Numbered from the stretch's first letter, positions 3,737-42,883 are shown. The stretch is 64,000 nt of DNA from a bacterium (GCA_022839105.1 JALHDH010000002.1:8943-72942); one strand, 5' to 3'. Made by a program: numbers and translations. The notes: generated from the letters alone by a model not told the origin.

Positions 3737-4405
3737 TCAGTCGGCCCGAGGGCTCGTGGCTTTTTCGTCCCCCGGGCAGCGGCGGATCAATCCGCGCATG
3801 ACCCCGCTGATGCGCACCTCGGAAAGGGACATCTGCTGGTCGGGATGCTCGGGATGGGCCGCCTTCAGGCAGATCTTTCCGCCCTGGGCATCCACGAAGA
3901 CCCTCTTGAGCGCTCCCCCCGAGGCTGAAGGGATGTGGACCGCGGCGATCTCGCCCGGTTGGGGATCCTGGCCGGGGCGAAGGAGGACCAGGTCTCCCGG
4001 GCAGATGCCGGCACCGACCAGGGAGTCCCCCTCCACCTCCACCAGATAGTCTCCGACCTCCCACTCCAGGAGTTCGTCCAGGCTGACCACCACCCGGCTG
4101 CTGGCCTGGGGCGCGCGTCCGATGGCGCCCGCCGGGATCCGGCCCAGGACCGGCAGACCCTCCAGCAGGTAGCGGACTCCCCTGGGCGTGAGTCGGATGA
4201 ACCTCTGTCGGCCTCGGACTCCGCCTTCGACGTGCAGGTACCCCTTGATCTGAAGGGCTCGCAGGGCGGGTGTGACGCTGGACTCGCCGGCCAGCCCCAT
4301 CTCCTGCGCCAGCACGGCTGCGGAGGGCACCATTCCATCCTTCTGGTGTCGGGCGATCAGGCGCAACAAGGCATCCTGTCTTCGCGGCAGGGCATCCTCG
4401 CTCAA
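3737..4405 (-). CDS. lexA: LexA repressor
   Basis: 222 aa from a TTG start (RBS AGAGGGGAAG upstream). It has the N-terminal winged HTH, Ser in VEGDSLVGAGICPGD and Lys in GALKRVFVD. The 545-aa ORF upstream of this start is Arg/Pro/Gly-rich and was rejected. Confidence 0.85.
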   Translation of the reverse strand: MSEDALPRRQDALLRLIARHQKDGMVPSAAVLAQEMGLAGESSVTPALRALQIKGYLHVEGGVRGRQRFIRLTPRGVRYLLEGLPVLGRIPAGAIGRAPQASSRVVVSLDELLEWEVGDYLVEVEGDSLVGAGICPGDLVLLRPGQDPQPGEIAAVHIPSASGGALKRVFVDAQGGKICLKAAHPEHPDQQMSLSEVRISGVMRGLIRRCPGDEKATSPRAD

Positions 4406-4428
4406 GGTTCTTCCCCTCTGCTTCTTGT

Positions 4429-4992
4429 TCAGTCGGGCCCGGACCGGTCGGGTTCGAGCAGTTGTCGGTAGGCCTGGGTCGATTCCGGGTCGTAGGTGCA
4501 GAACACCACCTCGGCCGGCGCCTGGTGTCTCATCAGGAATTCCTGGACCGCGTGGACGGCCAAGGGGGCGGCCTCGGAGATGGGGTAGCCATGGACCCCG
4601 GTGGAGATCCCCGGGAAGGCCACGGTCCGGCAGCCGTGCTCGAGCGCCAACTTCAGGCATTCGCAATAGCACGAAGCCAGAGCCTCGGCATCCTGTGGAC
4701 CGCGGTACACCGGGCCCACGGTGTGGAAGACCCGGCGGGCAGGCAGCCTGCCCGCCCGGGTCGCCATCGCCTGGCCCGTGGGCAGCGGACCAGAGCGGGC
4801 CACCCAGGCCTGGCATTCCGCCAGGATGGTCGGCCCACCGGCGCGATGGATGGCGCCGTCCACGCCCCCACCCCCTCTCAGGGCGGGATTGGCGGCGTTG
4901 ACCACGGCGTCCACCTCCAGGGTGGTGAGGTCCGCGCGGACCACGCACATGGCACATCCGTTCTCCAGGGTCCGTCGTGCGACTTCCTGCAT
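4429..4992 (-). CDS. Macro-domain protein (ADP-ribose / O-acetyl-ADP-ribose processing, YmdB-like)
   Basis: Start at M26 of ORF 5067. Motifs are DLTTLEVDAVVNAANPALRGGGGVDGAIHRAGG and AFPGISTGVHGYP. The gene sits 23 bp upstream of lexA on the same strand. Confidence 0.75.
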   Translation of the reverse strand: MQEVARRTLENGCAMCVVRADLTTLEVDAVVNAANPALRGGGGVDGAIHRAGGPTILAECQAWVARSGPLPTGQAMATRAGRLPARRVFHTVGPVYRGPQDAEALASCYCECLKLALEHGCRTVAFPGISTGVHGYPISEAAPLAVHAVQEFLMRHQAPAEVVFCTYDPESTQAYRQLLEPDRSGPD

Positions 4993-5129
4993 CCTTCCCT
5001 TCCACACGAGCCCTCTCTGGAAAACCTCTTCTTCGCCCGGGATTCGATTCCCTTGGCGAAATATCACGAGTCGCGGGGGCTCGCGGATCTTCGGCCAGGA
5101 ACCCGCCGGGTCGAAGAGAAGCCCCAGGC

Positions 5130-6008
5130 GTGAGCGACGAGGCCCGAATCACCTTCCTCTTCGCGGCCTGGCGGCGCTTTGTCGGCCTGGTCCGACTGGA
5201 ACAGACCGTTTTCGCCCTGCCCTTTGCCTGGATCGGGATGCTCCTGGCGGAAGGCGCCCTGCCTGATTGGAGGGTGGCCTTCTGGGTCACCATGGCGATG
5301 GTGGGCGCGAGGACTGCGGGGATGGCCCTCAATCGGCTCATCGACCGCGAGATCGATGCCCGCAATCCGCGCACCTGCCAGCGCGATCTTCCGGCCGGCC
5401 GGGTCTCGGTCCGCGGGGTCCGGCTCCTGGCAGCCTTCTCGCTTGGGCTCCTGGTGCTCTCGGCCGGGTTCCTGAACCCCCTGTGCCTGGCCCTCTCACC
5501 GGTCGCGGTCGGCCTCTTGCTGCTCTATTCCTACCTCAAGCGCTTGACCTGGGCCTGCCATGTGGGCCTGGGCCTGGTGCAGGCCTGCGCCCCCATCGGG
5601 GGCTGGCTTGCCGTGAGCGGTCGATTCGAGTTGCCTGCCCTGCTCCTGGGTCTGGGCATCCTGCTCTGGGTGGGAGGCTTCGATATCCTGTACGCCTGCC
5701 AGGACCTTGAGCATGATCGCGCCGTCGGGCTGCATTCGTTGCCTGCCCGACTGGGGGCGCGTCGCGCCTTCACGGTCGCTCGTGGCTTCCATGCCGGCTC
5801 GTTGGGGACCCTGGCGATGGCGGGTTCGCTGCTGGGACTGGGCTGGCCCTGGGCCTTGAGCCTGGGAATGGTGGGGGTCCTGCTGGTCTGGGAACACTCG
5901 CTCCTGTCCCCGGAGGATCTGTCCCGGATGCAGCAGGCCTTCTTCACCTGCAATGCCGGGATCAGCCTGACCTTGCTGGCCGGAGCCCTCCTGGAGGTCT
6001 GCTGCTGA
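5130..6008 (+). CDS. UbiA-family aromatic prenyltransferase (probable menaquinone polyprenyltransferase)
   Basis: GTG start at residue 52 of ORF 4977. Motif NRLIDREIDARNPRT (NxxxDxxxD) and 8-9 TM helices. It leads the futalosine-type cluster. Confidence 0.75.
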   Translation: MSDEARITFLFAAWRRFVGLVRLEQTVFALPFAWIGMLLAEGALPDWRVAFWVTMAMVGARTAGMALNRLIDREIDARNPRTCQRDLPAGRVSVRGVRLLAAFSLGLLVLSAGFLNPLCLALSPVAVGLLLLYSYLKRLTWACHVGLGLVQACAPIGGWLAVSGRFELPALLLGLGILLWVGGFDILYACQDLEHDRAVGLHSLPARLGARRAFTVARGFHAGSLGTLAMAGSLLGLGWPWALSLGMVGVLLVWEHSLLSPEDLSRMQQAFFTCNAGISLTLLAGALLEVCC

Positions 6009-6035: not shown

Positions 6036-6893
6036 TTGCCGGCAGGGACTGGAACCCAAGGGCCCGTGAGCGCCGTCCCCTTGGCCGTCGACGAGATCGA
6101 GGCCCTCCTGGAGGAGGGCTCGCTTCTGGAGTTGGGCGCTCGGGTGGGGAGCCCCCGGCTCTTCACCCGGGCCGGTTACCGCGAGGATGGGGCCGTGTTG
6201 CTGGCCGATCAGGGCCGGATCTGGAACCCCGTGCCGGGAGGGGGAATTCCTCGGGAACTGCACCTCCTGGAACCCACCGAGTCCCGGGTTCGCGATTTGA
6301 AGGCGCTCCATCCCGGTCTCTGGATCCATGCGGGCTGGCCTGGGGCCGGGGATCTTCCCGACCTGGAACGCCTGGTCCGGGTCGGGGTCGAGAGCTTCTC
6401 GATCCATTGCGGACCGTCGGGCTCGGGTGAAGACCCCCGGTGGGATCTGCTGGAGCCCGGCGCCCCCCTGGTGATCTGCGCCACCTATGGCCCGACCAGC
6501 ACGCCCCGGGAACTGGCCCGGCGCCTGGAGGGGTTCCGCACGGTTCGCGCCCTGAAGTGCCTGGCCTGGTTGCCGGAGTCTCCGGGCGAGGGGGTGCACC
6601 GGGCCGAGGCGACCGATGGCCTCCTGGATGCCCGGCTCCTGGCCGTGAGCCGACTGGTGCTTCCCGCCGGGGTGCGCGTCCGGGCCTCCTGGGCGGCCTT
6701 CGGATGGAAGATGGCCCAGTTCCTGCTGGCCTGTGGTGCCGACGAGGTGGCCGGTTGGGGCCTGGAAGAAGAGAGGGCATGGGGAGGGGCGCTGGCCTTG
6801 CCCTGCCCGGTCGGCGCGCGGGAGGCCCGGGCCGGGGTGGCCGAAGCCTCGCGCCAGCCCGTGGAGGTGCGCGGATGCGCCTGGGAGTCCTGA
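6036..6893 (+). CDS. MqnC/MqnE-family paralogue lacking the radical-SAM CxxxCxxC motif
   Basis: 285 aa. It is collinear with the intact radical-SAM protein at 7654 at both ends: DEIEALLEEGSLLELGA vs EEGVALLGEPDLFRLGA, and RLLAVSRLVLP...SWAAFGWKMAQFLLACGADEVAGWGLEE vs RVLAVARLYLD...GWVTEGARLAQVALDFGADDLGSLLMEE. It has no Cys triad. Confidence 0.6.
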   Translation: MPAGTGTQGPVSAVPLAVDEIEALLEEGSLLELGARVGSPRLFTRAGYREDGAVLLADQGRIWNPVPGGGIPRELHLLEPTESRVRDLKALHPGLWIHAGWPGAGDLPDLERLVRVGVESFSIHCGPSGSGEDPRWDLLEPGAPLVICATYGPTSTPRELARRLEGFRTVRALKCLAWLPESPGEGVHRAEATDGLLDARLLAVSRLVLPAGVRVRASWAAFGWKMAQFLLACGADEVAGWGLEEERAWGGALALPCPVGAREARAGVAEASRQPVEVRGCAWES

Positions 6894-7657
6894 AGTCCGT
6901 CAACGGGTTGCCGGTGACCCTCGGCCTGGAGTGCCGGGCCATCCCCTTTTCCGGCGAGATCCTTCCCGGCGAGCCCTCCTGGTTGAACCACCAGGCCCGT
7001 CAGGGCCTTTTGGACCTGACCCCCGTCTCGGCCGCCGAGGTGGCGGCCGCCCCTGGGGCCTATCACATCGTTCCTGGGTTCTGCGTGGCCTCCAGGGGGG
7101 TGGTCCAGAGCGTGCGCCTCTTCTCGAGGGTGCCCCCCGAGGAGCTTCGCGGCCGGCCGGTCGCCATCACCTCGGTCAGCGCCACCTCCCGGATCCTGGT
7201 CCAGGTCCTGCTGGCCGGGATCCGACCCGTCCCGCTCGAGGGGGAGCCCCGACTCGACGAGGGGCTCCCCGCCGTCCTGCTGATCGGCGACCGGGCCCTG
7301 GGTGAGGTCTCCGGAGCGCGGCACGTGACGGATCTGGGCGAACTCTGGACCAGGACCACGGGTCTCCCCATGGTCTTCGCCCTGTGGGTGGCCACGCGGG
7401 CGGAGGTGGCCCCCGTGGCTCTCGAACTGCTGGAACGCTCACGAGCCTGGGGCCAGGCCCATCGCGCCCGGCTCCTGACCGAGGCCTCCCGGCGCACCGG
7501 TCTGTCTCCTGAGAGGATGGAATCCTATTTTTCGGGGCTGCACCATCGCCTGGATGCCGAATCGGTCGCCGGGCTGCGGGAGTTCTATCGACGTGCCGGG
7601 CTTCTGGGGCTCCTGCCGCCGGGAAGCGAGGCCCTGCTGGCCGGGGTGGCGGCATGA
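6875..7657 (+). CDS. MqnA/MqnD-family menaquinone (futalosine pathway) protein
   Basis: 260 aa from M146 of ORF 6440. It is VitK2_biosynth-like (MRLGVLKSVNGLPVTLGL...GAYHIVPGF...LPMVFALWVA). It overlaps the previous gene by 19 nt and the next by 4 nt. Confidence 0.7.
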   Translation: MRLGVLKSVNGLPVTLGLECRAIPFSGEILPGEPSWLNHQARQGLLDLTPVSAAEVAAAPGAYHIVPGFCVASRGVVQSVRLFSRVPPEELRGRPVAITSVSATSRILVQVLLAGIRPVPLEGEPRLDEGLPAVLLIGDRALGEVSGARHVTDLGELWTRTTGLPMVFALWVATRAEVAPVALELLERSRAWGQAHRARLLTEASRRTGLSPERMESYFSGLHHRLDAESVAGLREFYRRAGLLGLLPPGSEALLAGVAA

Positions 7658-8733
7658 GCCGCTCGCTGGAAGGCGCCTGGGAATCCCTGGCGCAGGGGAG
7701 GCGCCTGAGGCCCGAGGAGGGGGTGGCCCTGCTGGGAGAGCCGGACCTCTTCCGCCTGGGCGCCGCCGCCGATCAGGTCCGTCGTCGCCTGCATCCGGAG
7801 GGTTACGTCACCTTCATCCGGGACCGGATCCTCAACTACACCAACGTCTGCATCACGGGCTGCAGGTTCTGCGCCTTCCATCGCCCTCCCGGGCATCCCG
7901 AGGCCTTCGTCCGCTCCCTGGAGGAGATCTTCCCCCGGATCGACGCGATGGAGAAGGTGGGCGGGACCACCCTCTTCCTGCAGGGAGGGCACAACCCGGA
8001 ACTGGGGATCGCCTTCTACGAGGACCTCTTCGCGGCGGTGAAGTCCCGCTATCCTCATCTGTACCTGCACTCCCTGGCTGCCTCCGAGGTCGACCATATC
8101 GCCACCACCTCCGGCCTCTCGCTGGAGGAGACCTTGTTGCGCCTGCGACGGGCGGGGCTGGATTCGCTTCCCGGGGGAGGCGCGGAGTTGCTGGTGGACG
8201 AGATCCGTCTTCGCGTCTCGCCCAGGAAGATCTCCTCCGAGCGCTGGTTGGAGGTCCATCAGACCGCCCATCGTCTGGGGATCGAGTCGACGGCCACCAT
8301 GGTCTTCGGTTTCGGCGAGACGCCCGAGCAGCGCATCGAGCACCTGGAGCGCCTGCGGAGCCTCCAGGACCGGACGGGAGGCTTCCGCTCCTTCACCCAT
8401 TGGAGCCTCTCGACCCGGGGGACCGGGCTGGCGGCCACCCTCCCCCCGGGGGGCGTGGAGTACCTTCGGGTCCTGGCCGTAGCCCGGCTCTATCTGGACA
8501 ATTTTCGACACCTCCACTCGGGCTGGGTCACCGAGGGCGCCCGCCTGGCCCAGGTGGCCCTGGACTTCGGGGCGGACGACCTGGGAAGCCTCCTGATGGA
8601 GGAGATGGTCCTGGCCGCCACCGGTGTGGGCTATCGTTACGATTCCGAGGAATTCGTCCGCCTGATCCGCGGAGCCGGTCGGATTCCGGCGGTGAGGAAC
8701 TCCCGTTACGAGATTCTGGAGGTCCTCGCGTGA
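7654..8733 (+). CDS. Radical-SAM menaquinone biosynthesis enzyme (MqnC or MqnE)
   Basis: 359 aa. It has CITGCRFCAF (the CxxxCxxC cluster motif) and a typical MqnC/E C-terminus. Confidence 0.75.
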   Translation: MSRSLEGAWESLAQGRRLRPEEGVALLGEPDLFRLGAAADQVRRRLHPEGYVTFIRDRILNYTNVCITGCRFCAFHRPPGHPEAFVRSLEEIFPRIDAMEKVGGTTLFLQGGHNPELGIAFYEDLFAAVKSRYPHLYLHSLAASEVDHIATTSGLSLEETLLRLRRAGLDSLPGGGAELLVDEIRLRVSPRKISSERWLEVHQTAHRLGIESTATMVFGFGETPEQRIEHLERLRSLQDRTGGFRSFTHWSLSTRGTGLAATLPPGGVEYLRVLAVARLYLDNFRHLHSGWVTEGARLAQVALDFGADDLGSLLMEEMVLAATGVGYRYDSEEFVRLIRGAGRIPAVRNSRYEILEVLA

Positions 8734-8750
8734 ACCCCTCAGACCAGGGC

Positions 8751-9458
8751 ATGCCCCCGCCTGCCGGGAAGGCCTCGCTGGTGCGCGGGATCTTTGCCCG
8801 CATCGCCGGGCGCTACGACCTGCTCAACGCCCTTCTCTCGCTCGGGCTGCACCGAACCTGGAGACGCGCCGCCGCCGCTCAACTGGATCTGGTTGCCGGC
8901 TCCACGGCCGTGGATCTGTGCTGCGGGACCGGAGAACTGACCCGGGCCCTGGCTCGCCTGGCCGGCCCCGAGAACGTGGTGGGCTTGGATTTCGTGCCCG
9001 AGATGCTGGAACGGGCCCGCTTGCGCCATCCGGGAATCCGGTTCCTGGAGGCGGATGCCCTGGCCACGGCCCTTCCCGAGGGGTCCTTCGATGGAGCCAG
9101 CGTGGCCTTCGCCCTGCGCAACGTCGAGGATGTCGAGGCCCTCTTTCGCGAGATGACCCGCCTGGTCCGTCCGGGCGGGCGGGTGGTCTCGTTGGAACTG
9201 ACCCGACCGGGCGGCCTTCTGGGATGCCTGCACGGCCTGGTCCTGCGCTGGATCGTCCCCCTGGTCGGGGGGATGCTCTCCGGCCAGGGAGGCGCCTATC
9301 GCTATCTGGCCCGATCGATCGCCGAATTCCTGCCGGTGGAGGAGGTGGCCCGCCGCATGGAGCGGGCCGGTCTGGAGGAGATCCGAATCCTGCCCCTGAC
9401 CGGGGGGATCGTGACCCTGCATGTCGGTCGCAGGCCGACCCGTCCCTCTGATGAGTGA
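8751..9458 (+). CDS. ubiE: Demethylmenaquinone/ubiquinone C-methyltransferase (UbiE/MenG)
   Basis: 235 aa. The SAM-binding block VDLCCGTGELT is present, with a UbiE-like N-terminus RYDLLNALLSLGLHRTWRR. An alternative GTG at 8730 would form a GTGA overlap with the upstream stop. Confidence 0.8.
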   Translation: MPPPAGKASLVRGIFARIAGRYDLLNALLSLGLHRTWRRAAAAQLDLVAGSTAVDLCCGTGELTRALARLAGPENVVGLDFVPEMLERARLRHPGIRFLEADALATALPEGSFDGASVAFALRNVEDVEALFREMTRLVRPGGRVVSLELTRPGGLLGCLHGLVLRWIVPLVGGMLSGQGGAYRYLARSIAEFLPVEEVARRMERAGLEEIRILPLTGGIVTLHVGRRPTRPSDE

Positions 9459-10575
9459 TCTCCTGACGCGTTACCGGGCCCTGGAGACCCCCCGGGTCGT
9501 CGGCCTGATGTCGGGAACCTCGGCCGATGCCATCGACGCCGCCCTGGTCGAGATGGGCCCCCGGCCGCGTCTGCTGGACTTCCGCTCTCACCCCCTACCT
9601 GCGGAGGTCCGTCGGAGGCTGCAGGAGGTCTTCGAGGACCGCGGTTCGCCTCGGGAGATCCTGCGCCTGCACTGGTTGCTGGGAGAGCTTTTCGCCCGGG
9701 CGGCCCTCTCGGTGATGGAACCCGGCGCCGACCTGGTCGCCTCCCATGGTCAGACCATCGCGCATCTCCCCCAGGCCGAGGACTTCTGCGGCGAGTCGGT
9801 GCGGGGGACCCTGCAGATCGGCGAGGGCGCGGTGATCGCCCGACGCACCGGGTGTCTGACGGTCTGCGACTTCCGGCCGGCCGACCTGGCAGCGGGCGGA
9901 CAGGGAGCCCCTCTGGTGCCCCATGCCGATGCCCTGCTCTTCCGCGACCCTCATGTGGATCGTCTGGCCCTGAACCTGGGAGGGATGGCCAACCTGACCT
10001 GGATTCCCTCCCACGGGGAGGTCGAGGCCTGCGATACGGGGCCGGGCAACGCTCTTCTGGATGCCCTGGCCTGGCGAGCGACCGGAAGGCCCTGCGACGA
10101 AGGGGGGGGGCTGGCGGCCCGAGGTCAGGTCCTGCCCGAGATCCTGGCGGAGTTGATGGCCCACCCCTACCTGTCGCGGCCTGCGCCCAAGTCAACCGGG
10201 CGCGAAGAGTTCGGAAGGGCCCTGGCGGACCGACTCTGGGGCCGGGGGAACCCCGAGGACCTGCTCCGGACTGCTGCCGCCTTCACGGCCGCCTCGGTCA
10301 TGTTGCATGTGCAGCGATATCTGCGGGGGGAGGCCCAGATCCTGGTGGGTGGGGGAGGGGTCGAGAATCTGGTCCTGATGGTCGAGTTGAGTCGGCGGCT
10401 GCCGGAAGGGGTCCGCCTTCTGCGGATGGAGGAGGTCGGCCTTCCCGCCCAGGCCCGGGAGGCGGTGGCCTTCGCCATCCTGGGGCACGAGACGGCCCAC
10501 TTCCGGCCAGCCAACGTCCCCCGGGCCACGGGCGCCTCCTGTCCGGTGGTCCTGGGCCGGATCCTGGTGCCCTGA
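9451..10575 (+). CDS. anmK: Anhydro-N-acetylmuramic acid kinase
   Basis: Start at M11 of ORF 9421. Motifs are VVGLMSGTSADAIDAALV and DTGPGNALLDA. It overlaps the ubiE stop by 8 nt. Confidence 0.8.
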   Translation: MSDLLTRYRALETPRVVGLMSGTSADAIDAALVEMGPRPRLLDFRSHPLPAEVRRRLQEVFEDRGSPREILRLHWLLGELFARAALSVMEPGADLVASHGQTIAHLPQAEDFCGESVRGTLQIGEGAVIARRTGCLTVCDFRPADLAAGGQGAPLVPHADALLFRDPHVDRLALNLGGMANLTWIPSHGEVEACDTGPGNALLDALAWRATGRPCDEGGGLAARGQVLPEILAELMAHPYLSRPAPKSTGREEFGRALADRLWGRGNPEDLLRTAAAFTAASVMLHVQRYLRGEAQILVGGGGVENLVLMVELSRRLPEGVRLLRMEEVGLPAQAREAVAFAILGHETAHFRPANVPRATGASCPVVLGRILVP

Positions 10576-20164: not shown

Positions 20165-21685
20165 TCAGGAATCGGAGGGACGGCCCAGCGCGAAGTCGAC
20201 CAGGCTCAGCAGCCCGTTGACGTCGAAGGGCTTGGAGAGGAAGGCCACGGCCCCGTGTTCGAGCATGTTGGCGCTGCGCTCGTCTGCCCCGTAGCCGCTC
20301 ATCACGACCACCCGCAGGTCGGGGTTCAGCTCGCGCATCTTCTCGAAGGCCTCCTGTCCCCCCATCACGGGCATGGTCAGATCCAGGAAGACCATCTTGA
20401 TTTCCCGGCCGTGGGTCTTGAGCAGTTCGACCGCCTCCAGGCCGTTGCGGGCCGTCAGGGCCCGATAGCCGCGTCGGCGCAGGGCGGCCCCGGCGAAGAG
20501 GCGGATGGCCTCCTCGTCGTCCGCGAAGAGGACCAGCTCGTTGGCCGACCGATCCAACAGGGAGGTCTCCGGGGGCTGGGCGCCGGGTGGCTCGTGAGCC
20601 GGGAGGGCGGGCTCGCGGGGGGCGGCGGGAGTGAAGGGCAGGAGCACCATGAACCGGGTTCCTAGGCCCTCTTCGCTGACGAAGCTGACCAGGCCCCCGT
20701 GGCTGCGGATGATCCCGTAGGTGGTGGCCAGGCCCAGTCCGCTCCGGGAGTCCTCGCGGGTGGTGAAGAAGGGGCGGAAGATGCGGGCCTGGATCTCCTT
20801 GGGGATGCCTCGGCCGGTGTCCCCCACCTCGAAGAGGAGGTAGCGGCCCGGGGCCGCTCCGGGGAAGTGCTGGCGGTGGTCTTCGTTCATCTCCACCAGG
20901 GAGCTGCGGAACACGATCACCCCCGGGTTGTCGGCCAGGGCATCGCGGGCGTTCAGGGCCAGGTTCACGAAGGCCTGTCGCAACTGCTCAGGGTCGGACT
21001 CGATCTGGCAAGGGTCGGCCTGAAGATCGACTCCGATCTCGATGTTCCGGGGGAAGGTCTGGCGGACCAGCTCGACGACGCCCTGGAAGACCTCGGAGGG
21101 GTCGCAGGATTCCTCCCGGCGCACGTGGCGCCTTCCAAAGGTGAGAAGCTGACCGGCCAGGTTCAGGCCTCGCCGGGCTGCGCTCTGCACCTGGCCGAGC
21201 AGGACCCGCGACGGGGTATCCTTGGCGTCCAGGACCAGCAGATCGGTCAACCCCAGGATCGCAGTGCCCACGTTGTTGAATTCATGTGCCAGTTCCCCGG
21301 AGAGCTCCGAGAGGGCCTCGACCCTTTGGGCCCGGTTGGTGTGTTCTTCGCGCTGCCTGCGTCGGGCCACGTCCTGCAAAACGGCATAGACGGGCCCCTC
21401 GGGCTGGACGGGATCCCCGTGGACCAGGACCTCCAGGAGCACTCCGTCGGGCATGGACACCAGGCTGCTCCAGGAATCGGCGCCCTCGCGCACGGTCCGG
21501 GCTGCCAGGGTCAGGGCCTCGGCCAGGATGGCGAGCTCGCCGTCCTGGGGGAGAGGGCGGCCGGCCCCTTCCTTCAACTCAAGAATGCGGGCAGCCTCTC
21601 GGTCGGGAAGGAATTGCCCGTCGGCCTCGATCCGGATCGTGCCGAAGGGGATCTCCGAGCCGGTGAAGGGAGTCGAGTTGCTCAT
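20165..21685 (-). CDS. Hybrid sensor histidine kinase (PAS-like sensor, HisKA, HATPase, C-terminal receiver)
   Basis: H-box LAHEFNNVGTAILG. The ATPase has N (ALNARDA), G1 (DTGRGIP) and G2 (GLGL) blocks. The receiver is VLFADDEEAI...VFLDLTMPVMGG...VVVMSGY. Confidence 0.8.
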   Translation of the reverse strand: MSNSTPFTGSEIPFGTIRIEADGQFLPDREAARILELKEGAGRPLPQDGELAILAEALTLAARTVREGADSWSSLVSMPDGVLLEVLVHGDPVQPEGPVYAVLQDVARRRQREEHTNRAQRVEALSELSGELAHEFNNVGTAILGLTDLLVLDAKDTPSRVLLGQVQSAARRGLNLAGQLLTFGRRHVRREESCDPSEVFQGVVELVRQTFPRNIEIGVDLQADPCQIESDPEQLRQAFVNLALNARDALADNPGVIVFRSSLVEMNEDHRQHFPGAAPGRYLLFEVGDTGRGIPKEIQARIFRPFFTTREDSRSGLGLATTYGIIRSHGGLVSFVSEEGLGTRFMVLLPFTPAAPREPALPAHEPPGAQPPETSLLDRSANELVLFADDEEAIRLFAGAALRRRGYRALTARNGLEAVELLKTHGREIKMVFLDLTMPVMGGQEAFEKMRELNPDLRVVVMSGYGADERSANMLEHGAVAFLSKPFDVNGLLSLVDFALGRPSDS

Positions 21686-21851
21686 GGTGGGGAGGCTTTC
21701 GGCGAAGCAGGGAAGCTGCCCTTTCCATCAGGCGAATCTGATCCGGCCTTTCCCCGCCTCGTCTCCTCCGAAAGGCCAGGAAACTCCGTTTCTTGGAAAA
21801 CCGAGGCCCGTCGGGTAGGGCTTCGAGTCGATCTTGCGAATAGGCGGACCC

Positions 21852-22064
21852 ATGAATCCTCAGAGCCATTGGGAGCGTTGGAAGGCGCTGGCGGCCCGGG
21901 CTGCCACCTTTCAGGCCAGGGTCCTGCTGGTGGCCTTCTATTGGGTGGTGGTGACTCCCTTCGCCCTGCTCTTGCAGGCCTTTGCGGACCCCCTGGAGCT
22001 TCGGAACCCCGAGGGCGGACGCTGGTCCCGACCCGCGGCCGGCGACCCCCGGCGGCAGCACTGA
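21852..22064 (+). CDS. Small single-TM protein upstream of the carbamoyltransferase (SxtJ-like candidate)
   Basis: 70 aa (MNPQSHWERWKALAARAATFQARVLLVAFYWVVVTPFALLL...). Its TGA overlaps the carbamoyltransferase ATG (TGATG at 22062-22066). An alternative TTG lies at 21834. Confidence 0.45.
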   Translation: MNPQSHWERWKALAARAATFQARVLLVAFYWVVVTPFALLLQAFADPLELRNPEGGRWSRPAAGDPRRQH

Positions 22065-25000
22065 TGAGGGTCCTGGGGATTTCCTGCTTCTATCACGACG
22101 CTGCGGCGGCTTTGCTGGTGGATGGGCACCTCGTCGCCGCGGCCGAGGAGGAGCGCTTCTCGCGGGTCAAGCACGACTGGGAGTTCCCTTCCCACGCGGT
22201 CCGGTTCTGCCTGGACCGGGCCGGGATCACCGGGGCCGACCTGGACCTGGTCGTCTTCTACGAGAAGCCCTTCTGGAAGTTCGACCGGATCCTGATGTCC
22301 ACCCTGGCCACCTGGCCCCGTTCGATGGTGGCCTTTCGGGAGGCCATGTTGGTCTGGCTCCTGGATAAGTTGTGGGCCCGGGATCTGCTCCAGGAGCGGA
22401 TCGGCTGCCAGCGGGATCGGATCGTCTTCTGTCCCCACCACATGTCCCACGCCGCCAGCGCCTTCTATCCTTCGGGGCTTGAGAAGTCCGCGATCCTGAC
22501 CGTGGACGGGGTGGGCGAGTGGGCCACCGGAACCCGGGGGACCGCCTGGGACCAGGAGATCCTCCTGGACGAGGAGATGCGCTACCCCCACTCATTGGGG
22601 TTGTTGTACAGCGCCTTCACGGCCTTCCTGGGCTTCCAGGTCAACGAGGGCGAATACAAGGTCATGGGCATGGCGCCCTACGGGCAGCCCCGCTTCGCGG
22701 ATCTGATCCTGGACAAGATGGTCCATCTGCGTCCGGACGGCTCCTTCCGCCTGGACATGGACTGCTTCGCCTACCACCACTCGGCCTTCCATTCCTTCAG
22801 CGAGCGCTTCGTCGAGTTGCTGGGGCCGGCTCGGACCCGGGAAGAGGCGAACCTCCTGGACCCCCACTATGCCGACGTGGCGGCCAGCATCCAGAAGGTT
22901 GCCGAGGAGATCCTGGTCCGACAGGCTTCCTGGCTGCACCGACGGACAGGGCACGAGGCCCTGTGCATGGCCGGAGGAGTCGCCCTGAACTCGGTGGCCA
23001 ACTCCCGGATCCTGCGCGAGTCGGGCTTCAAGAAGCTGTACATCCAACCCGCCGCCGGCGACGGGGGAGGTGCCCTGGGAGCCGCCCTCTGGGGCTACCA
23101 TCAGGTCCTGGGCGGGCGCGAACGTTTCCGGATGGATCACTGCTATTGGGGACAGGAACATTCCGACCAGGCCATCGCCGATTTCCTGCGCTCGGAAGGC
23201 CACGCCTACCAGGAATTCTCCGACCTGGAAGCGGTCCATTCGGAGGTGGCCGAACGCCTGGCCTGTGGACAGGTGGTGGGCTGGATGCAGGGGCGCTTCG
23301 AGTGGGGCCCTCGGGCCCTGGGCGCGCGCAGCATCCTGGCCGACCCCCGGGCGGCCCACATGAAGGACGTCGTCAACGCCCGGATCAAGTTCCGGGAGCC
23401 CTTCCGCCCCTTCGCACCCTCCGTTCTGGCCGAGCGGGTGGAGGATTACTTCGATCTTCCCGACGCGCCGGGGGTGGACCCGGCCCGCTTCATGCTGATG
23501 GTGGTCCCGGTCCGGCCCGATCGCCGGGACGAGATCCCCGCCGTGACCCACGTGGACGGCACCGCCCGCATCCAGGCCGTGCACCGGGAACAGAGTCCCG
23601 AATACCACGGGGTGATCTCGAGTTTCTGCCAGCTCACCGGGGTTCCGGTGGTCCTGAACACTTCGTTCAACCTGCGCGGCGAGCCCATCGTCAATACTCC
23701 TGCCGAGGCCTACTCGACCTTTGCCCGCTCGGACATGGATGCCCTGGTCATGGGCCGCTTCCTGGTCAGCCGCCGGGCGGCGGGTGAGGGGCGGCTGGTC
23801 CCAGGAGCGGAGCTGGAGAAGTGGGCCCACGCCCCCCAGAGGGTCTCTGGGACCGAGAACCGTCCAGAGTCCCGTCCGGCTCTTGCCGAGTCCGGTCACG
23901 GTCTTTTCGGAGTGCGCCCGGAAGAGTCGCCAGCCTCCGGCCCGAACGGCGTCTCACCGGCTTCGCTCCTGGGGAAGGTGGCGCTGGTCCTGCTGGCCAG
24001 CCTGGTCCTCCTGGAGATCCTGGTCCGCTTCCTGGTGCCCAATCCCAACATGCAGCTTCGCGGCATGTACCTCGAGGACGAGGAGGGAATCCGGCTTCGG
24101 CCGGGCTGGCAGGGCAGGATCCACAACGCGGAGTTCGACACCCGGGTCGAGATCGGTCCGGACGGCCGGCGGGATCTCCCCGAGCCCCCGCCGGACCCGA
24201 CGGCGACGGTCCTGGCCCTGGGGGATTCCTTCACCTTCGGCTGCTGGTCGGACTCCGACTCGACCTGGCTTGCCCGCCTGCAGCGAGCCGGCGGGGTCCG
24301 GGTCCTCAACGCCGGGGTTCCCAACGCGGGAACCGACGCCGAGGCGGCCTGGCTGCGCGGCCCGGGGGCCGGGATCCCGGCGGATCTGCTCCTGGTGGCC
24401 TTCTATACGGGCAACGACTTCCACGACAACCTGGTGGGACGGGACGCCTTCACCCTGGATTCCGGCTTCCTGGTGCTCAAGCCCGCCGCCGAGGCCCGTT
24501 GGAGCGGGTACGATTGTCTGGGGCGGACCCCTCCGCCCCGGACCGACCTGCCTCCAGATGCCCGCCGCCCCTGGTATCGCGGGGCTTTGATGCGCAGTCA
24601 CCTGTATCAGTATGTGCGTTCGCGGGTGTATGGGGGCACGCGTTCGGCCCTGCGCCCCTCCTTGCCCCAGGCCTGGTTCCTGCGCCGCTACACCCCCGAG
24701 ATGGAGCAGGCCCTGTTCAAGACCAACCAGCACCTCGACGACCTGCTGGCCCAGGCCAGATCGCGGGGGATTCCAATGGCCCTGGTTGTCATCCCCTCCT
24801 CCCAGGAGGTCTACGACGAGGAATGGCAGGCCTGGCTGGCGGCCTGGGAGCTGGAGGATGGGCTCTTCGATCGCTCCAGGCCGCGCCGCTTCCTGCTGGA
24901 CTGGGCCCGCCAGAGGAATGTGCCGGCCCTGGACCTGCTTCCATCGCTTCGGGGGCGGGAGCGTCTGTACTATCGGGCGGACATGCACTGGAATGACCTG

Positions 25001-25075
25001 GGCCACTTCCAGGCGGGTGAGAAGGTCGCGGAGTTCCTGCGCGAGCAGGGTCTTTCCGGAGAGGTGGGACGATGA
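22064..25075 (+). CDS. NodU/CmcH-family carbamoyltransferase fused via a TM helix to an AlgX/AlgJ-like SGNH (DHHW-type) domain
   Basis: 1003 aa. The N-domain starts MRVLGISCFYHDAAAALLVDGHLVAAAEEERFSRVKHD. The C-domain has HVDGTARIQAV and VVLNTSFNLRGEPIV. A TM segment is VALVLLASLVLLEILVRFLV. The SGNH blocks are LALGDSFTFGC, NAG, TGND and YYRADMHWNDLGH. The 455 codons upstream in the same ORF are antisense to the histidine kinase and were rejected. Confidence 0.8.
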   Translation: MRVLGISCFYHDAAAALLVDGHLVAAAEEERFSRVKHDWEFPSHAVRFCLDRAGITGADLDLVVFYEKPFWKFDRILMSTLATWPRSMVAFREAMLVWLLDKLWARDLLQERIGCQRDRIVFCPHHMSHAASAFYPSGLEKSAILTVDGVGEWATGTRGTAWDQEILLDEEMRYPHSLGLLYSAFTAFLGFQVNEGEYKVMGMAPYGQPRFADLILDKMVHLRPDGSFRLDMDCFAYHHSAFHSFSERFVELLGPARTREEANLLDPHYADVAASIQKVAEEILVRQASWLHRRTGHEALCMAGGVALNSVANSRILRESGFKKLYIQPAAGDGGGALGAALWGYHQVLGGRERFRMDHCYWGQEHSDQAIADFLRSEGHAYQEFSDLEAVHSEVAERLACGQVVGWMQGRFEWGPRALGARSILADPRAAHMKDVVNARIKFREPFRPFAPSVLAERVEDYFDLPDAPGVDPARFMLMVVPVRPDRRDEIPAVTHVDGTARIQAVHREQSPEYHGVISSFCQLTGVPVVLNTSFNLRGEPIVNTPAEAYSTFARSDMDALVMGRFLVSRRAAGEGRLVPGAELEKWAHAPQRVSGTENRPESRPALAESGHGLFGVRPEESPASGPNGVSPASLLGKVALVLLASLVLLEILVRFLVPNPNMQLRGMYLEDEEGIRLRPGWQGRIHNAEFDTRVEIGPDGRRDLPEPPPDPTATVLALGDSFTFGCWSDSDSTWLARLQRAGGVRVLNAGVPNAGTDAEAAWLRGPGAGIPADLLLVAFYTGNDFHDNLVGRDAFTLDSGFLVLKPAAEARWSGYDCLGRTPPPRTDLPPDARRPWYRGALMRSHLYQYVRSRVYGGTRSALRPSLPQAWFLRRYTPEMEQALFKTNQHLDDLLAQARSRGIPMALVVIPSSQEVYDEEWQAWLAAWELEDGLFDRSRPRRFLLDWARQRNVPALDLLPSLRGRERLYYRADMHWNDLGHFQAGEKVAEFLREQGLSGEVGR

Positions 25076-41044: not shown

Positions 41045-42883
41045 ATGTATTCTGGAGCCCTGCAGGCGGCCATCGAGGCCGCACGTCTCGCCGGAGACCT
41101 CCTCCTGGCCGAGTTCTGCCGCCCGGGAGGCCCCCGAGGCAGCTCCGGGCACGCCCCCGCAGACGGCCAGGCCGAGGGGCTGATCGCCGAATTGCTGCTG
41201 GGTCGCTTCCCCGAGTGGGGTTTCCGTGGGGAGGAAAGGCCGGAGCTTCGTCGGGGCGGCGAGCACGTCTGGGTGGTGGACCCCAACGACGGAACCAGCG
41301 CCTGGCTCGAGGGCTGGCGAGGCAGCGCGGTCTCGATCGCCCTGGTGCATCGGGGGCGTCCGGTGCTGGGTGTGGTGCATGCCTTCGCGGTGGGGGAGGG
41401 CGACCTCTTCGCCTGGGCTGAAGGCTGCGGTCCCGTGCTCCGCAATGGCGTCCCCCTGATCGCTCGGAGCTGGCCCGAGACCCTCTCGAATCGGGATGTG
41501 GTCCTGGTCTCCCAGCACGCCGACCATCGAGCCGGGTTCAACGCCCGGGCCGTCGCTCCGGCCCGCTTCCGGGCCGTTCCGGGAATCGCCTGGAGGCTGG
41601 CCCTGGTGGCGGCCGGGGAAGGGGCGGCGGCGGTCTCGCTCTCGGGTCCGGGCGACTGGGACTATGCGGCCGGGCACGCCCTGCTGCGCGGAGCGGGGGG
41701 AGACCTCTACGACGAGGCGGCCAGGCCCGTCGGTTACGATTCCCAGGGGCGCAGTTCCCTTGCGCGCTGCTTCGGAGGCTCCCAGCCCCTGGCCCGCGAG
41801 CTGGCTGGCCGGGACTGGAGCCTGGGTCCACCCCGGCCCTCCTCCCTGTGCTGGCCCTCACGAGGGCGCATCCTGACCGATCGGGGCCTCCTGGCCCGAG
41901 CCCAGGGGGTCCTGCTGGGGCAGGTCGCGGGAGATTCGCTGGGCAGCCTGGTGGAATTCTTGGACCCGGAGCAGATCCGGCGCCGTCATCCGGAAGGAGT
42001 CCGGGAACTGGCCGACGGGGGGACCTGGAACACGCTGGCAGGACAGCCGACCGACGATTCAGAGATGGCCCTGGCCCTGGCCCGGTCGATCCTGGCTTCG
42101 GGAGGGTGGTCTTCGAGTGCGTCGGCCTGGGCCTACGGGGCCTGGCTCCGCTCCGGGCCCTTCGATGTCGGGAACACGACCCGGACGGTCCTGGGCGGCC
42201 TCGGTGAGGACCATTCTCCCGAAGAGGCCGAGGGGATCTGCCGGGAGGCAGCGCTGCGGGTGGCCCGGCAGGGGGGGCAGGCCAATGGTTCGCTGATGCG
42301 GATCAGTTCGCTGGGGATCTTCGGGCATGCCCTGGAAACCGAGGTGCTGGTGGAGATGGCCCGCCGGGAGAGCGCCCTGACCCACGCCCATCCCGTCTGC
42401 GCGGATGCCTGCGCGGCCTTCGTGCTGGCCATCGCCTTCGCCTTGCGCACCGGCGGGGCGCCTCGGGAGGTCTGGGAGGTGGCCCGGGACTGGGCCCGCG
42501 AGCACGCCCACCCCGACGTGCTGGAGACGCTCGAGGCCGCCGACCAGGGGCCGCCGGCCCGCTTCACCACGCAGCAGGGCTGGGTCCGGACCGCCTTGCA
42601 GAACGCCTTCTATCGGTTGCTTCACGCCGGGAGCCTGGAGCAGGGCGTGGTGGAGACGGTGGCATGCGGGGGGGATACCGACACCAACGCGGCCATCGCG
42701 GGGGCCTTGCTGGGCGCCGTGCACGGACGCCAGGCGATCCCGAAAGGGTGGGAGGAGGCCGTCCTGACCTGCCGGGCGCTTCCTCCGGCTCCTCATCCGC
42801 GTCCCCAGGAGTACTGGCCGGTGGACGGGCTCATCCTGGCCGAGAACCTGGCGGTCCTGGGCCAGGAGGCGGCTTCGGACTGA
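41045..42883 (+). CDS. Fusion of an inositol-monophosphatase/CysQ-fold phosphatase with an ADP-ribosylglycohydrolase (ARH/DraG-like)
   Basis: 612 aa. The N-part has WVVDPNDGTSAW (DPxDGT) and WDYAAGHALL (WDxAAG). The C-part has GQVAGDSLGSLVEF, LMRISSLGIF and GGDTDTNAAIAGALLGA. Confidence 0.7.
   Translation: MYSGALQAAIEAARLAGDLLLAEFCRPGGPRGSSGHAPADGQAEGLIAELLLGRFPEWGFRGEERPELRRGGEHVWVVDPNDGTSAWLEGWRGSAVSIALVHRGRPVLGVVHAFAVGEGDLFAWAEGCGPVLRNGVPLIARSWPETLSNRDVVLVSQHADHRAGFNARAVAPARFRAVPGIAWRLALVAAGEGAAAVSLSGPGDWDYAAGHALLRGAGGDLYDEAARPVGYDSQGRSSLARCFGGSQPLARELAGRDWSLGPPRPSSLCWPSRGRILTDRGLLARAQGVLLGQVAGDSLGSLVEFLDPEQIRRRHPEGVRELADGGTWNTLAGQPTDDSEMALALARSILASGGWSSSASAWAYGAWLRSGPFDVGNTTRTVLGGLGEDHSPEEAEGICREAALRVARQGGQANGSLMRISSLGIFGHALETEVLVEMARRESALTHAHPVCADACAAFVLAIAFALRTGGAPREVWEVARDWAREHAHPDVLETLEAADQGPPARFTTQQGWVRTALQNAFYRLLHAGSLEQGVVETVACGGDTDTNAAIAGALLGAVHGRQAIPKGWEEAVLTCRALPPAPHPRPQEYWPVDGLILAENLAVLGQEAASD

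What the first reader, a model, noticed from the sequence alone, without database searches (positions are those of the whole stretch)
6036..6893. Futalosine-type menaquinone cluster contains a full-length MqnC/MqnE paralogue that has lost the radical-SAM Cys triad
Within the ubiA-mqnA-mqnC/E-ubiE operon, the 285-aa gene aligns to the adjacent intact radical-SAM enzyme at both ends. The segment corresponding to CITGCRFC reads LADQGRIWNPVPGGGI, and no CxxxCxxC occurs anywhere in the protein. The reading frame is continuous, so this is not a frameshift. The futalosine route normally needs two radical-SAM steps (MqnE and MqnC). Only one intact radical-SAM gene is in this cluster. The Cys-less copy is therefore either a pseudo-enzyme or scaffold, or it has a different chemistry.
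Basis: seen in the sequence. Interest (0 to 1): 0.55.

Follow-up and report, generated by a model that had tools for sequence, protein, structure and literature searches.

The report
Iron-sulfur-less MqnE copy in menaquinone operon
In a vitamin-K2 (menaquinone) operon, the slot normally held by the radical enzyme MqnE holds a conserved relative that has lost every residue needed to bind its iron-sulfur cluster, so either the real enzyme sits elsewhere in the genome or this step works in an unknown way.

Summary
Window 6036-6893 (start probably GTG 6066, 275 aa) is a real, conserved gene. It has no CxxxCxxC. It lies in a translationally coupled operon: mqnP, X, mqnA, mqnC, menG. Pairwise similarity to the adjacent MqnC covers only the C-terminal 88 residues. 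Profile-profile alignment shows full-length homology, closer to MqnE (E 5.6e-25, 267 columns) than to MqnC (1.4e-17, 192 columns). The AlphaFold model (pLDDT 82) is an eight-stranded alternating beta/alpha fold, and its best solved match is MqnE (6XIG, E 2e-11). X keeps only 3 of 29 MqnE-conserved columns in the cluster/SAM-binding half and 9 of 24 in the C-terminal half. One family member has no cysteine at all.

X sits where mqnE sits in mqnEAC operons. Divergent MqnE-like proteins that keep the Cys triad fill the same slot in related contigs. The family has 76 clusters, all unnamed or "hypothetical", from Eremiobacterota/Vulcanimicrobiota-type MAGs. It shows the same gene order in every sufficiently long locus and dN/dS of about 0.2-0.45.

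Best reading: a radical-dead MqnE descendant kept as a ligand-binding or scaffold partner of MqnA/MqnC. I could not test whether a canonical MqnE exists elsewhere in these genomes. That test decides how interesting this is.

The parts
5130..6008 (+). mqnP (UbiA-family menaquinone prenyltransferase), first gene of the operon. The listed ORF starts at 4977; the probable start is GTG 5130.
   Evidence: NCBIfam MqnP_DT scores 322 bits and the UbiA-like subfamily TIGR01475 scores 292 bits against a cut-off of 181. Pfam UbiA 1.1e-59. Start read. Homologues are 291-293 aa.
6036..6893 (+). Gene X: a Cys-less, shortened MqnE-like TIM-barrel protein. It is 285 aa from TTG 6036, more likely 275 aa from GTG 6066.
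   Evidence: No CxxxCxxC. Weak CofH_C/MqnC/MqnE hits over the C-terminal part only. hhalign against MqnE-type proteins gives probability 99.6%, E 5.6e-25, 267 columns. The AF2 model has pLDDT 82 and pTM 0.85, and its best PDB match is MqnE 6XIG, E 2.2e-11. 76 homologous clusters.
6210..6254 (+). Place of the lost [4Fe-4S] loop: codons for 'ADQGRIWNPVPGGGI'. In the alignment this segment flanks the deletion of the CxxxCxxC segment.
   Evidence: Multiple alignment of the X, Y, MqnE and MqnC groups. The three Cys columns are gaps in 100% of X sequences.
6864..6893 (+). Overlap junction X/mqnA. The mqnA Shine-Dalgarno GGAGG (6864-6868) lies inside X codons 'VEV'. The mqnA ATG at 6875 lies 19 nt before the X stop.
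   Evidence: Sequence read. The same 19-nt overlap appears in L001, L009 and L012.
6875..7657 (+). mqnA (chorismate dehydratase, VitK2_biosynth family)
   Evidence: Pfam PF02621 2.7e-54. The closest solved structures are chorismate dehydratase MqnA, E 1.8e-20; MqnD scores only 2.6e-4.
7654..8733 (+). mqnC (cyclic dehypoxanthinyl futalosine synthase), the intact radical-SAM enzyme with CITGCRFC. Its start overlaps the mqnA stop by 4 nt.
   Evidence: TIGR03699 scores 445.5 bits against a cut-off of 428.1; Radical_SAM and CofH_C Pfam domains are present.
8730..9458 (+). menG/ubiE (demethylmenaquinone methyltransferase). The start is GTG 8730, overlapping the mqnC stop, or ATG 8751.
   Evidence: TIGR01934 scores 196 bits against a cut-off of 158; Pfam Ubie_methyltran 3.2e-45. 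Start read.

Best explanation
What is shown. Gene X descends from the radical-SAM enzyme MqnE (aminofutalosine synthase) and sits in the mqnE position of an mqnP-[E]-mqnA-mqnC-menG operon. It has lost the CxxxCxxC loop that holds the [4Fe-4S] cluster. It has also lost the GG and PGGGAE motifs that MqnE and MqnC both conserve. It therefore cannot cleave S-adenosylmethionine by the canonical route. It keeps a predicted eight-stranded beta/alpha fold and part of the conserved C-terminal half of the family. It is under purifying selection and is fixed in this operon across a whole lineage.

What is inferred. X no longer catalyses the MqnE reaction. It is kept as a non-radical partner: a ligand-binding or scaffolding subunit that works with MqnA and/or MqnC, to which it is translationally coupled. 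MqnE is fused to those two proteins in other bacteria. On this reading the real aminofutalosine synthase activity comes from a canonical mqnE elsewhere in the genome.
For: Homology and fold.
- hhalign X against the MqnE-type set: probability 99.6%, E 5.6e-25, 267 columns. Against MqnC: 1.4e-17, 192 columns.
- tblastn with an MqnE-like protein hits X at 6.9e-12, against 1.5e-4 for the adjacent MqnC.
- The best PDB sequence hit and the best fold hit are both MqnE.
- The AF2 model has eight strand elements alternating with helices.

Loss of radical-SAM machinery.
- No Cys triad in any of 38 members. P0030 has no Cys at all and P0011/P0012 have one.
- Only 3 of 29 MqnE-conserved columns survive in the N-terminal half, against 9 of 24 in the C-terminal half.
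- No Pfam Radical_SAM hit.

Slot.
- Every X locus long enough shows MqnP-X-MqnA-MqnC-MenG.
- Divergent MqnE-like proteins that keep the Cys triad (best NCBIfam match MqnE, 119-147 bits) occupy the same slot in L017 and L018.
- An 'mqnEAC operon' is described in PMC4746308.

Physical linkage.
- Natural fusions exist: MqnE-MqnC, MqnA-MqnE-MqnC, MqnE-MqnA, and MqnE-MqnA-Cys-less domain. The last is seen in three Myxococcota records.
- The X stop overlaps the mqnA start by 19 nt.

Selection.
- dN/dS is 0.21-0.45 for X against 0.03-0.41 for MqnC.
- X is 54% identical where MqnC is 82%, and 37% where MqnC is 70%.
- There are 49 invariant columns among close members and 13 across the broad family.
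Against: - No binding or interaction was tested, so the partner role is inference only.
- I could not show that a canonical mqnE exists in any X-bearing genome. None lies in the 64-kb window or within 10 kb of X in about 24 loci. The attempt to find one through the protein database failed for technical reasons.
- A pure scaffold would not obviously need the conserved polar residues Y151, T193, D198, R216, S218, K225, Q228 and E245.
- In the NJ tree X is a long isolated branch, so descent from the Cys-bearing slot proteins is not resolved by phylogeny.
Confidence: 0.45

Rival explanations
1. Neofunctionalised enzyme. X kept the pocket that once bound 3-[(1-carboxyvinyl)oxy]benzoate or aminofutalosine. 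It now catalyses a non-radical step of the pathway that is not encoded in the operon, for example release of adenine or hypoxanthine (the MqnB/MTAN step) or the MqnD step.
For: - Conserved polar residues sit at or after strand ends in the model: E74/H76, W96/H98, Y151, T193-D194-G195, D198, R216, S218, K225, Q228, D236-E237, E244-E245.
- The operon and window contain no mqnB or mqnD.
- Non-orthologous replacement of MqnD has been proposed before (mqnZ, PMC4746308).
Against: - Most invariant residues of X are inherited from the MqnE/MqnC family rather than newly acquired.
- Cys-bearing proteins fill the same slot in relatives, which argues that the slot's ancestral job was the radical one.
- Foldseek finds no hydrolase-like match better than the radical-SAM enzymes.
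- Absence of mqnB and mqnD from the operon is normal for these pathways.
Confidence: 0.2
2. Split or trans-acting MqnE. The genome has no canonical MqnE. X supplies the substrate pocket for the aminofutalosine-forming reaction, and the 5'-deoxyadenosyl radical comes from the cluster and SAM site of MqnC or another radical-SAM protein in a heteromeric complex.
For: - X occupies the mqnE slot itself.
- No canonical mqnE lies within the window or within 10 kb of X in any locus.
- A second Cys-less clade (Z) fills the same slot in a seven-gene mqn operon (L032). That operon includes an amidohydrolase domain fused to MqnP. From general knowledge, aminofutalosine deaminase belongs to that superfamily, which would imply aminofutalosine is made there.
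- MqnE-MqnC fusions show that the two barrels can be in one complex.
Against: - I know of no precedent for a radical-SAM active site split between two barrels.
- X has lost most MqnE-conserved residues, including LDN..H in the C-terminal half.
- Absence of mqnE was tested over only a small fraction of each genome.
- In Myxococcota a Cys-less domain coexists with a canonical MqnE in one polypeptide.
Confidence: 0.1
3. Decaying relic. X is an mqnE on its way to loss after displacement by another copy, and it has no function of its own.
For: - It is the fastest-evolving gene of the operon.
- It has lost nearly all catalytic motifs and about 90 residues.
- Part of the conservation at its C-terminus is explained by the overlapping mqnA start and ribosome-binding site.
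Against: - The reading frame is intact in 76 clusters.
- The family is monophyletic with 98% bootstrap and spans lineages whose MqnC proteins are only 69-70% identical.
- dN/dS is 0.21-0.45.
- 13 columns are invariant across the broad family, away from the overlap.
- The AF2 fold is confident.
Confidence: 0.05
4. Artefact. The Cys-less sequence results from a sequencing or assembly error or a frameshift, or the ORF is a spurious high-GC open frame.
For: High-GC genomes carry many long spurious ORFs, and several overlap this locus on both strands.
Against: - Identical DNA in four independent assemblies.
- Coding-type GC3.
- Conserved homologues in conserved gene order.
Confidence: 0.01

Closest known systems
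MqnE, aminofutalosine synthase (TIGR03700; PDB 6XI9/6XIG, Pedobacter heparinus)
   Same: - Best profile-profile partner: E 5.6e-25, full length.
- Best solved-structure match by sequence and by fold.
- Same operon position, upstream of mqnA-mqnC.
- Shared C-terminal motifs..YG....PLP.., A..RL, W..LG.K.AQ..L.FGAD, EAGR.P.
   Different: - No CxxxCxxC, no HIVGG, no PGGGAE; K198, H212, E228, H236, Q244 and LDN..H are lost.
- About 90 residues shorter.
- TIGR03700 score is 25.8 bits against a cut-off of 434.55.
MqnC, cyclic dehypoxanthinyl futalosine synthase (TIGR03699), the adjacent gene
   Same: Same superfamily and fold. Pairwise 31% identity over 88 C-terminal residues.
   Different: More distant than MqnE: hhalign 1.4e-17 over 192 columns. 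MqnC is intact and above its family cut-off.
Divergent Cys-bearing MqnE-like proteins of related contigs (group Y here: P0047, P0050, P0059, P0060, P0064, P0074, P0102)
   Same: - Same slot, UbiA--MqnA-MqnC.
- hhalign X against Y gives E 1e-23 over 266 columns.
- Both groups have lost the PGGGAE motif.
- Flanking MqnC, MqnP and MqnA are 41-60% identical to those of the window.
   Different: Y keeps CxxxCx[VL]C and is 328-434 aa. X and Y are only 27-31% identical. The tree does not resolve X as nested in Y.
[not shown]
   Same: - Loss of the Cys triad with the C-terminal region retained.
- Z fills the same slot in L032; W lies next to MqnC in L033.
- hhalign X against Z gives E 1.6e-22.
   Different: They form separate clades in the tree. 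Z keeps 7 of 29 N-half columns against 3 for X. Sources annotate them as hypothetical, 'ThiH' or 'aminodeoxyfutalosine synthase'.
Pseudoenzyme paralogues that partner their active relatives (general concept, from general knowledge)
   Same: Catalytic motif lost, fold kept, conserved, and encoded next to active relatives.
   Different: No interaction or regulatory effect has been shown for X.

Membership tests
Radical SAM superfamily (PF04055) | Three-Cys motif (CxxxCxxC or a variant) that ligates the [4Fe-4S] cluster | tested here: not met
   No CxxxCxxC in X or in any of 38 family members. One member has zero Cys. The three Cys columns are gaps in all X sequences.
Radical SAM superfamily (PF04055) | Match to the Radical_SAM core profile, and motifs conserved in MqnE/MqnC (GG after strand 2, PGGGAE after strand 4) | tested here: not met
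   No PF04055 hit at E<=1. HIVGG is replaced by HLLEP and PGGGAE by IHCGPSG. Only 3 of 29 conserved N-half columns are kept.
Radical SAM superfamily (PF04055) | (beta/alpha) TIM-barrel fold of the HydG/ThiH/BioB/MqnE type | tested here: met
   The AF2 model has pLDDT 82 and eight strand elements alternating with helices. The top Foldseek hits are MqnE, PylB, BioB and ThiH, with TM 0.58-0.69 normalised to the query.
MqnE, aminofutalosine synthase (TIGR03700) | Score above the curated equivalog cut-off (434.55 bits) | tested here: not met
   25.8 bits, C-terminal 117 residues only.
MqnE, aminofutalosine synthase (TIGR03700) | Full-length homology, closer to MqnE than to MqnC | tested here: met
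   hhalign gives E 5.6e-25 over 267 columns for MqnE-type proteins, against 1.4e-17 over 192 columns for MqnC. The best PDB hits are MqnE.
MqnE, aminofutalosine synthase (TIGR03700) | Genomic position with mqnA and mqnC (mqnEAC arrangement) | tested here: met
   X-MqnA-MqnC in all loci. The mqnEAC operon is described in PMC4746308. E-A, A-E-C and E-C fusions exist.
MqnE, aminofutalosine synthase (TIGR03700) | Catalysis: SAM-dependent addition of the 5'-deoxyadenosyl radical to 3-[(1-carboxyvinyl)oxy]benzoate | not testable with these tools
   Needs biochemistry. The sequence lacks the cluster ligands, so canonical catalysis is not expected.
MqnC (TIGR03699) | Score above the curated cut-off (428.1 bits) | tested here: not met
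   27.7 bits. The adjacent gene meets it with 445.5 bits.
CofH/MqnC C-terminal region (PF19288) | Score above the gathering threshold (27 bits) | tested here: inconclusive
   26.3 bits, E 7e-6, just under the threshold. Precomputed hits are on record for several family members.

The most novel reading that the evidence does not exclude
X-bearing bacteria (Eremiobacterota/Vulcanimicrobiota and relatives) have no canonical MqnE at all. The aminofutalosine-forming step of the futalosine pathway would then be done with a cluster-less MqnE descendant. Either X acts as a substrate-holding subunit that borrows the radical generator of MqnC or another radical-SAM protein, or the step uses a new non-radical chemistry. 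The independent Cys-less clades in the same operon slot (Z) would then mark a recurrent, unrecognised variant of the pathway.
Probability: 0.12. Interest if true: 0.9.

Novelty: new variant of a known kind. Interest (0 to 1): 0.6.

Why it matters
The futalosine pathway is the menaquinone route of many anaerobes and of pathogens such as Helicobacter, Campylobacter and Chlamydia. Its two radical-SAM steps are treated as obligatory. Here a whole lineage carries a conserved protein in the mqnE slot of the operon that cannot hold the iron-sulfur cluster. At least one other clade does the same.

If a normal mqnE lies elsewhere, this is a clear natural example of a radical-SAM enzyme turned into a pseudoenzyme partner. 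It would also hint that MqnA, MqnE and MqnC work as a complex, which the natural fusions support too. If no normal mqnE exists, the pathway has an unknown variant of a chemically demanding step.

There is also a practical point. Automated pipelines label some of these Cys-less proteins 'aminodeoxyfutalosine synthase' or 'ThiH', and others 'hypothetical'. Pathway reconstructions for these phyla can therefore be wrong in either direction.

Tried and rejected
1. Finding a canonical mqnE in X-bearing genomes.
- I then searched the 5.8-billion-protein set with an MqnE profile. The hope was to recognise hits by the length of large X-bearing contigs (1,710,317; 510,822; 486,538; 453,845 bp and others). 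Only the best 120 of 7,990 hits are listed and none matched. This says nothing either way.

2. Phylogeny to place X inside MqnE or inside group Y. The NJ tree with 100 bootstraps gives X as a 98%-supported but very long branch. Midpoint rooting puts it outside everything, so the question is unresolved. A first attempt with Biopython distances timed out.

4. Literature. No paper in the library describes a Cys-less MqnE/MqnC homologue. No structural paper on MqnE residues was found.

5. Considered and rejected.
- Frameshift or sequencing error.
- Spurious ORF.
- An unrelated family: the DUF5632 hit, E 0.029, is noise.
- The VitK2_biosynth neighbour being MqnD: it is MqnA-like.
- The invariant C281 as a hidden metal ligand: its codon shares bases with the mqnA start codon, and it is absent from several distant members.

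6. Context look-up of Z member P0136 gave only a 1.2-kb contig.

Full report
**1. The observation**

The ORF 6036-6893 (+) exists and encodes 285 aa. Homologues are called at 275 aa. That corresponds to GTG 6066, preceded by AAGGG.

The protein has six cysteines and no CxxxCxxC. The neighbour at 7654-8733 has CITGCRFC.

The gene is not an artefact:
- Four independent public assemblies carry 100% identical DNA for it.
- Its codon-position GC (0.77/0.57/0.83) is that of a real gene in this 68% GC genome.
- It has conserved homologues.

**2. The operon**

The order is mqnP (5130-6008), X, mqnA (6875-7657), mqnC (7654-8733), menG (8730 or 8751-9458), then anmK (9421-10575, named from the PF03702 AnmK product at the same position in L012).

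- The VitK2_biosynth gene is MqnA-like. Chorismate dehydratase structures score E 1.8e-20 and MqnD scores 2.6e-4.
- The intact radical-SAM gene is MqnC. TIGR03699 scores 445.5 bits (cut-off 428.1) and TIGR03700 scores 335.6 (cut-off 434.55).
- The genes are translationally coupled. The X stop lies 19 nt after the mqnA ATG, and the mqnA ribosome-binding site lies inside X. mqnA/mqnC overlap by 4 nt, and mqnC/menG also overlap by 4 nt if menG starts at GTG 8730.
- The 64-kb window holds no second MqnC/MqnE paralogue, no MqnD, and no UbiD or UbiX. No nucleosidase family appears among the 20 other ORFs scanned.

**3. What X is related to**

Single-sequence searches see only the C-terminal third:
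- CofH_C, 26.3 bits against a threshold of 27.
- MqnC, MqnE and CofH models, 23-28 bits.
- BLASTP to the adjacent MqnC, 31% identity over 88 residues, E 1e-6.

A profile of the family finds MqnE as the only meaningful solved structure. An exhaustive search gives 480 hits at E<=0.001. After the family itself, these are MqnE/MqnC-type proteins.

Profile-profile alignment is full-length:

| X compared with | Probability | E-value | Columns |
|---|---|---|---|
| MqnE-type proteins | 99.6% | 5.6e-25 | 267 |
| MqnC | 98.9% | 1.4e-17 | 192 |

An MqnE-like protein also hits X better than the adjacent MqnC does in tblastn, 6.9e-12 against 1.5e-4. The nearer relative is MqnE, not MqnC.

**4. Structure**

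AlphaFold2 with the 17-sequence alignment gives pLDDT 81.9 and pTM 0.85. The model has eight strand elements alternating with helices, preceded by two N-terminal helices. Foldseek against the PDB ranks MqnE first (6XIG, E 2.2e-11, TM 0.69 on the query). PylB, BioB and ThiH follow, and ordinary TIM barrels come after those. The radical-SAM-type fold is retained.

**5. What has been lost**

In the joint alignment the Cys loop is a deletion in X.
- All three Cys columns are gaps in every X sequence.
- HIVGG becomes HLLEP, and PGGGAE becomes IHCGPSG followed by a deletion.
- K198, H212, E228, H236, Q244 and LDN..H (P0040 numbering) are gone.
- X keeps 3 of 29 MqnE-conserved columns in the N-terminal half, which holds the Cys-triad, HIVGG and PGGGAE columns. 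It keeps 9 of 24 in the C-terminal half. MqnC keeps 23 and 16.
- No family member has the motif. One has no cysteine and others have one, so a Cys-ligated cluster is excluded for the family.
- The only invariant Cys of the close members (C281) and W283 share bases with mqnA codons 1-4. Their conservation needs no function in X.

**6. The family and its context**

The close family has 16 clusters. The broad one has 76 clusters at E<=1e-15, and roughly two dozen representatives at 50% identity. All are unnamed or 'hypothetical protein'. Source labels are Candidatus Eremiobacteraeota, Vulcanimicrobiota and Armatimonadota MAGs. The nearest GTDB genome is UBP9_UBA1432, a basal Eremiobacterota lineage.

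In every locus long enough to tell, the order is MqnP-X-MqnA-MqnC-MenG, sometimes with UbiX upstream. This holds for about 24 loci, including members only 24-37% identical to the window protein. No canonical MqnE lies within 10 kb.

X evolves faster than its neighbours:

| Comparison with the window | X identity | MqnC identity |
|---|---|---|
| L009 | 54% | 82% |
| L012, L015 | 37% | 69-70% |

It is still under purifying selection, with dN/dS 0.21-0.45 against 0.03-0.41 for MqnC. These values are inflated by GC3 bias and by saturation of dS. The family is monophyletic with 98% bootstrap.

**7. The slot is the mqnE slot**

- Seven representatives (P0047, P0050, P0059, P0060, P0064, P0074, P0102) keep a CxxxCx[V/L]C motif but are highly divergent. 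Of the three scanned (P0047, P0050, P0059), the best NCBIfam match is MqnE at 119-147 bits, far below the cut-off.
- P0047 and P0050 sit in exactly the same place, UbiA--MqnA-MqnC, on contigs whose MqnC, MqnP and MqnA are 41-60% identical to those of the window.
- An 'mqnEAC operon' is described in the literature (PMC4746308).
- Natural fusions exist: MqnE-MqnC, MqnA-MqnE-MqnC and MqnE-MqnA.

X is therefore best read as the positional descendant of mqnE. The NJ tree cannot confirm this, because X is a very long branch.

**8. X is not alone**

- A second Cys-less clade (Z, about 290-300 aa) fills the same slot in L032. The order there is UbiD-Z-MqnA-MqnC-amidohydrolase::MqnP-UbiX-MenG.
- A third clade (W) lies directly after MqnC in L033.
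- A Myxococcota protein seen in three records is MqnE-MqnA followed by a Cys-less domain of the same superfamily. That domain contains 'AGYREQG', reminiscent of 'AGYREDG' in X. It shows that a cluster-less domain can coexist with a canonical MqnE.

**9. How it most likely works**

Shown:
- X is homologous to MqnE and keeps its fold.
- X has lost the cluster ligands and the family's conserved N-half motifs.
- X is conserved and its operon position is fixed.

Inferred: X cannot do radical-SAM chemistry on its own. It is kept as a non-radical partner of MqnA and/or MqnC, for ligand binding, hand-over of intermediates or scaffolding. A canonical MqnE would then be encoded elsewhere (confidence 0.45).

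Rivals:
- A new non-radical enzyme for a step missing from the operon, 0.2.
- A split MqnE that borrows a radical generator in trans in genomes with no canonical MqnE, 0.1.
- A functionless relic, 0.05.
- An artefact, 0.01.

The decisive test is a whole-genome search for mqnE in X-bearing genomes.

**10. Novelty and score**

No NCBIfam or Pfam model describes the family. No paper in the searched library describes it either. It is a new variant of a known kind: a radical-SAM enzyme family member turned cluster-less and fixed in its pathway operon. Interest is 0.6. It would rise sharply if canonical MqnE proves absent.

Noticed in passing
window 6864-6893: The last 19 nt of X overlap the mqnA start. 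The mqnA Shine-Dalgarno GGAGG lies in X codons 'VEV'. X's only invariant Cys (C281) and W283 share bases with mqnA codons M1-R2 and L3-G4. The invariant X C-terminus 'VEVRGCAWES' may therefore be imposed by mqnA, not by X.
   Followed up: partly
L017 3637-4764; L018 5240-6427: Highly divergent MqnE-like proteins (P0047, P0050) keep CxxxCx[V/L]C but lack PGGGAE, score only 140-147 bits on TIGR03700, and have no Pfam Radical_SAM hit on record. They occupy the same UbiA-[ ]-MqnA-MqnC slot as X. Whether they are active MqnE enzymes is unknown.
   Followed up: partly
L032 654-1517 and 3521-5653: A different Cys-less clade (Z, P0179) fills the same slot in a seven-gene mqn operon. That operon also encodes a 710-aa fusion of an amidohydrolase domain to the prenyltransferase MqnP. 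From general knowledge, aminofutalosine deaminase belongs to the amidohydrolase superfamily.
   Followed up: partly
L033 8631-10978: A third Cys-less relative (P0100, 325 aa) lies directly downstream of an intact MqnC-type radical-SAM gene and upstream of ThiS and MoaE genes, outside any obvious mqn operon.
   Followed up: no
proteins P0039, P0042, P0043, P0048, P0049, P0055, P0153, P0154: Natural fusions of futalosine enzymes: MqnE-MqnC, MqnA-MqnE-MqnC (1121 aa), MqnA-MqnC, MqnE-MqnA, and a Myxococcota MqnE-MqnA-Cys-less-domain protein (906 aa, in three records, annotated simply as MqnE). They suggest that these enzymes act in a complex.
   Followed up: partly
proteins P0117, P0064, P0032, P0182: Source annotations are unreliable for this superfamily. 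The Cys-less P0117 is called 'aminodeoxyfutalosine synthase'. Cys-less P0032 and P0182 are called '2-iminoacetate synthase ThiH'. X members are 'hypothetical protein'.
   Followed up: no
proteins P0138, P0157, P0162: Proteins of 647-688 aa have a Cys-less MqnE-like N-terminal domain and an unassigned C-terminal half of about 300 residues.
   Followed up: no
window 6875-7657: The MqnA protein matches Pfam VitK2_biosynth strongly (2.7e-54) but matches no NCBIfam model at E<=1. The HMM set used for prokaryotic annotation has a gap for this clade.
   Followed up: no
window 20699-25075: A 1458-aa ORF combines an unassigned N-terminal 450 residues, a carbamoyltransferase (N and C domains) and a C-terminal SGNH/AlgX-like acyl-hydrolase region. 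This is an unusual architecture.
   Followed up: no
window 41045-42883 and 383-2155: Two further fusion proteins: inositol-monophosphatase fused to ADP-ribosylglycohydrolase (612 aa), and OpcA fused to a 6-phosphogluconolactonase-like domain (590 aa). The second fusion is also present in relatives L009 and L013.
   Followed up: no
window 3737-5067 (- strand): A LexA-type repressor and a macro-domain protein lie directly upstream of the mqn operon and are divergently oriented. The arrangement is conserved in L005, L009 and L010.
   Followed up: no
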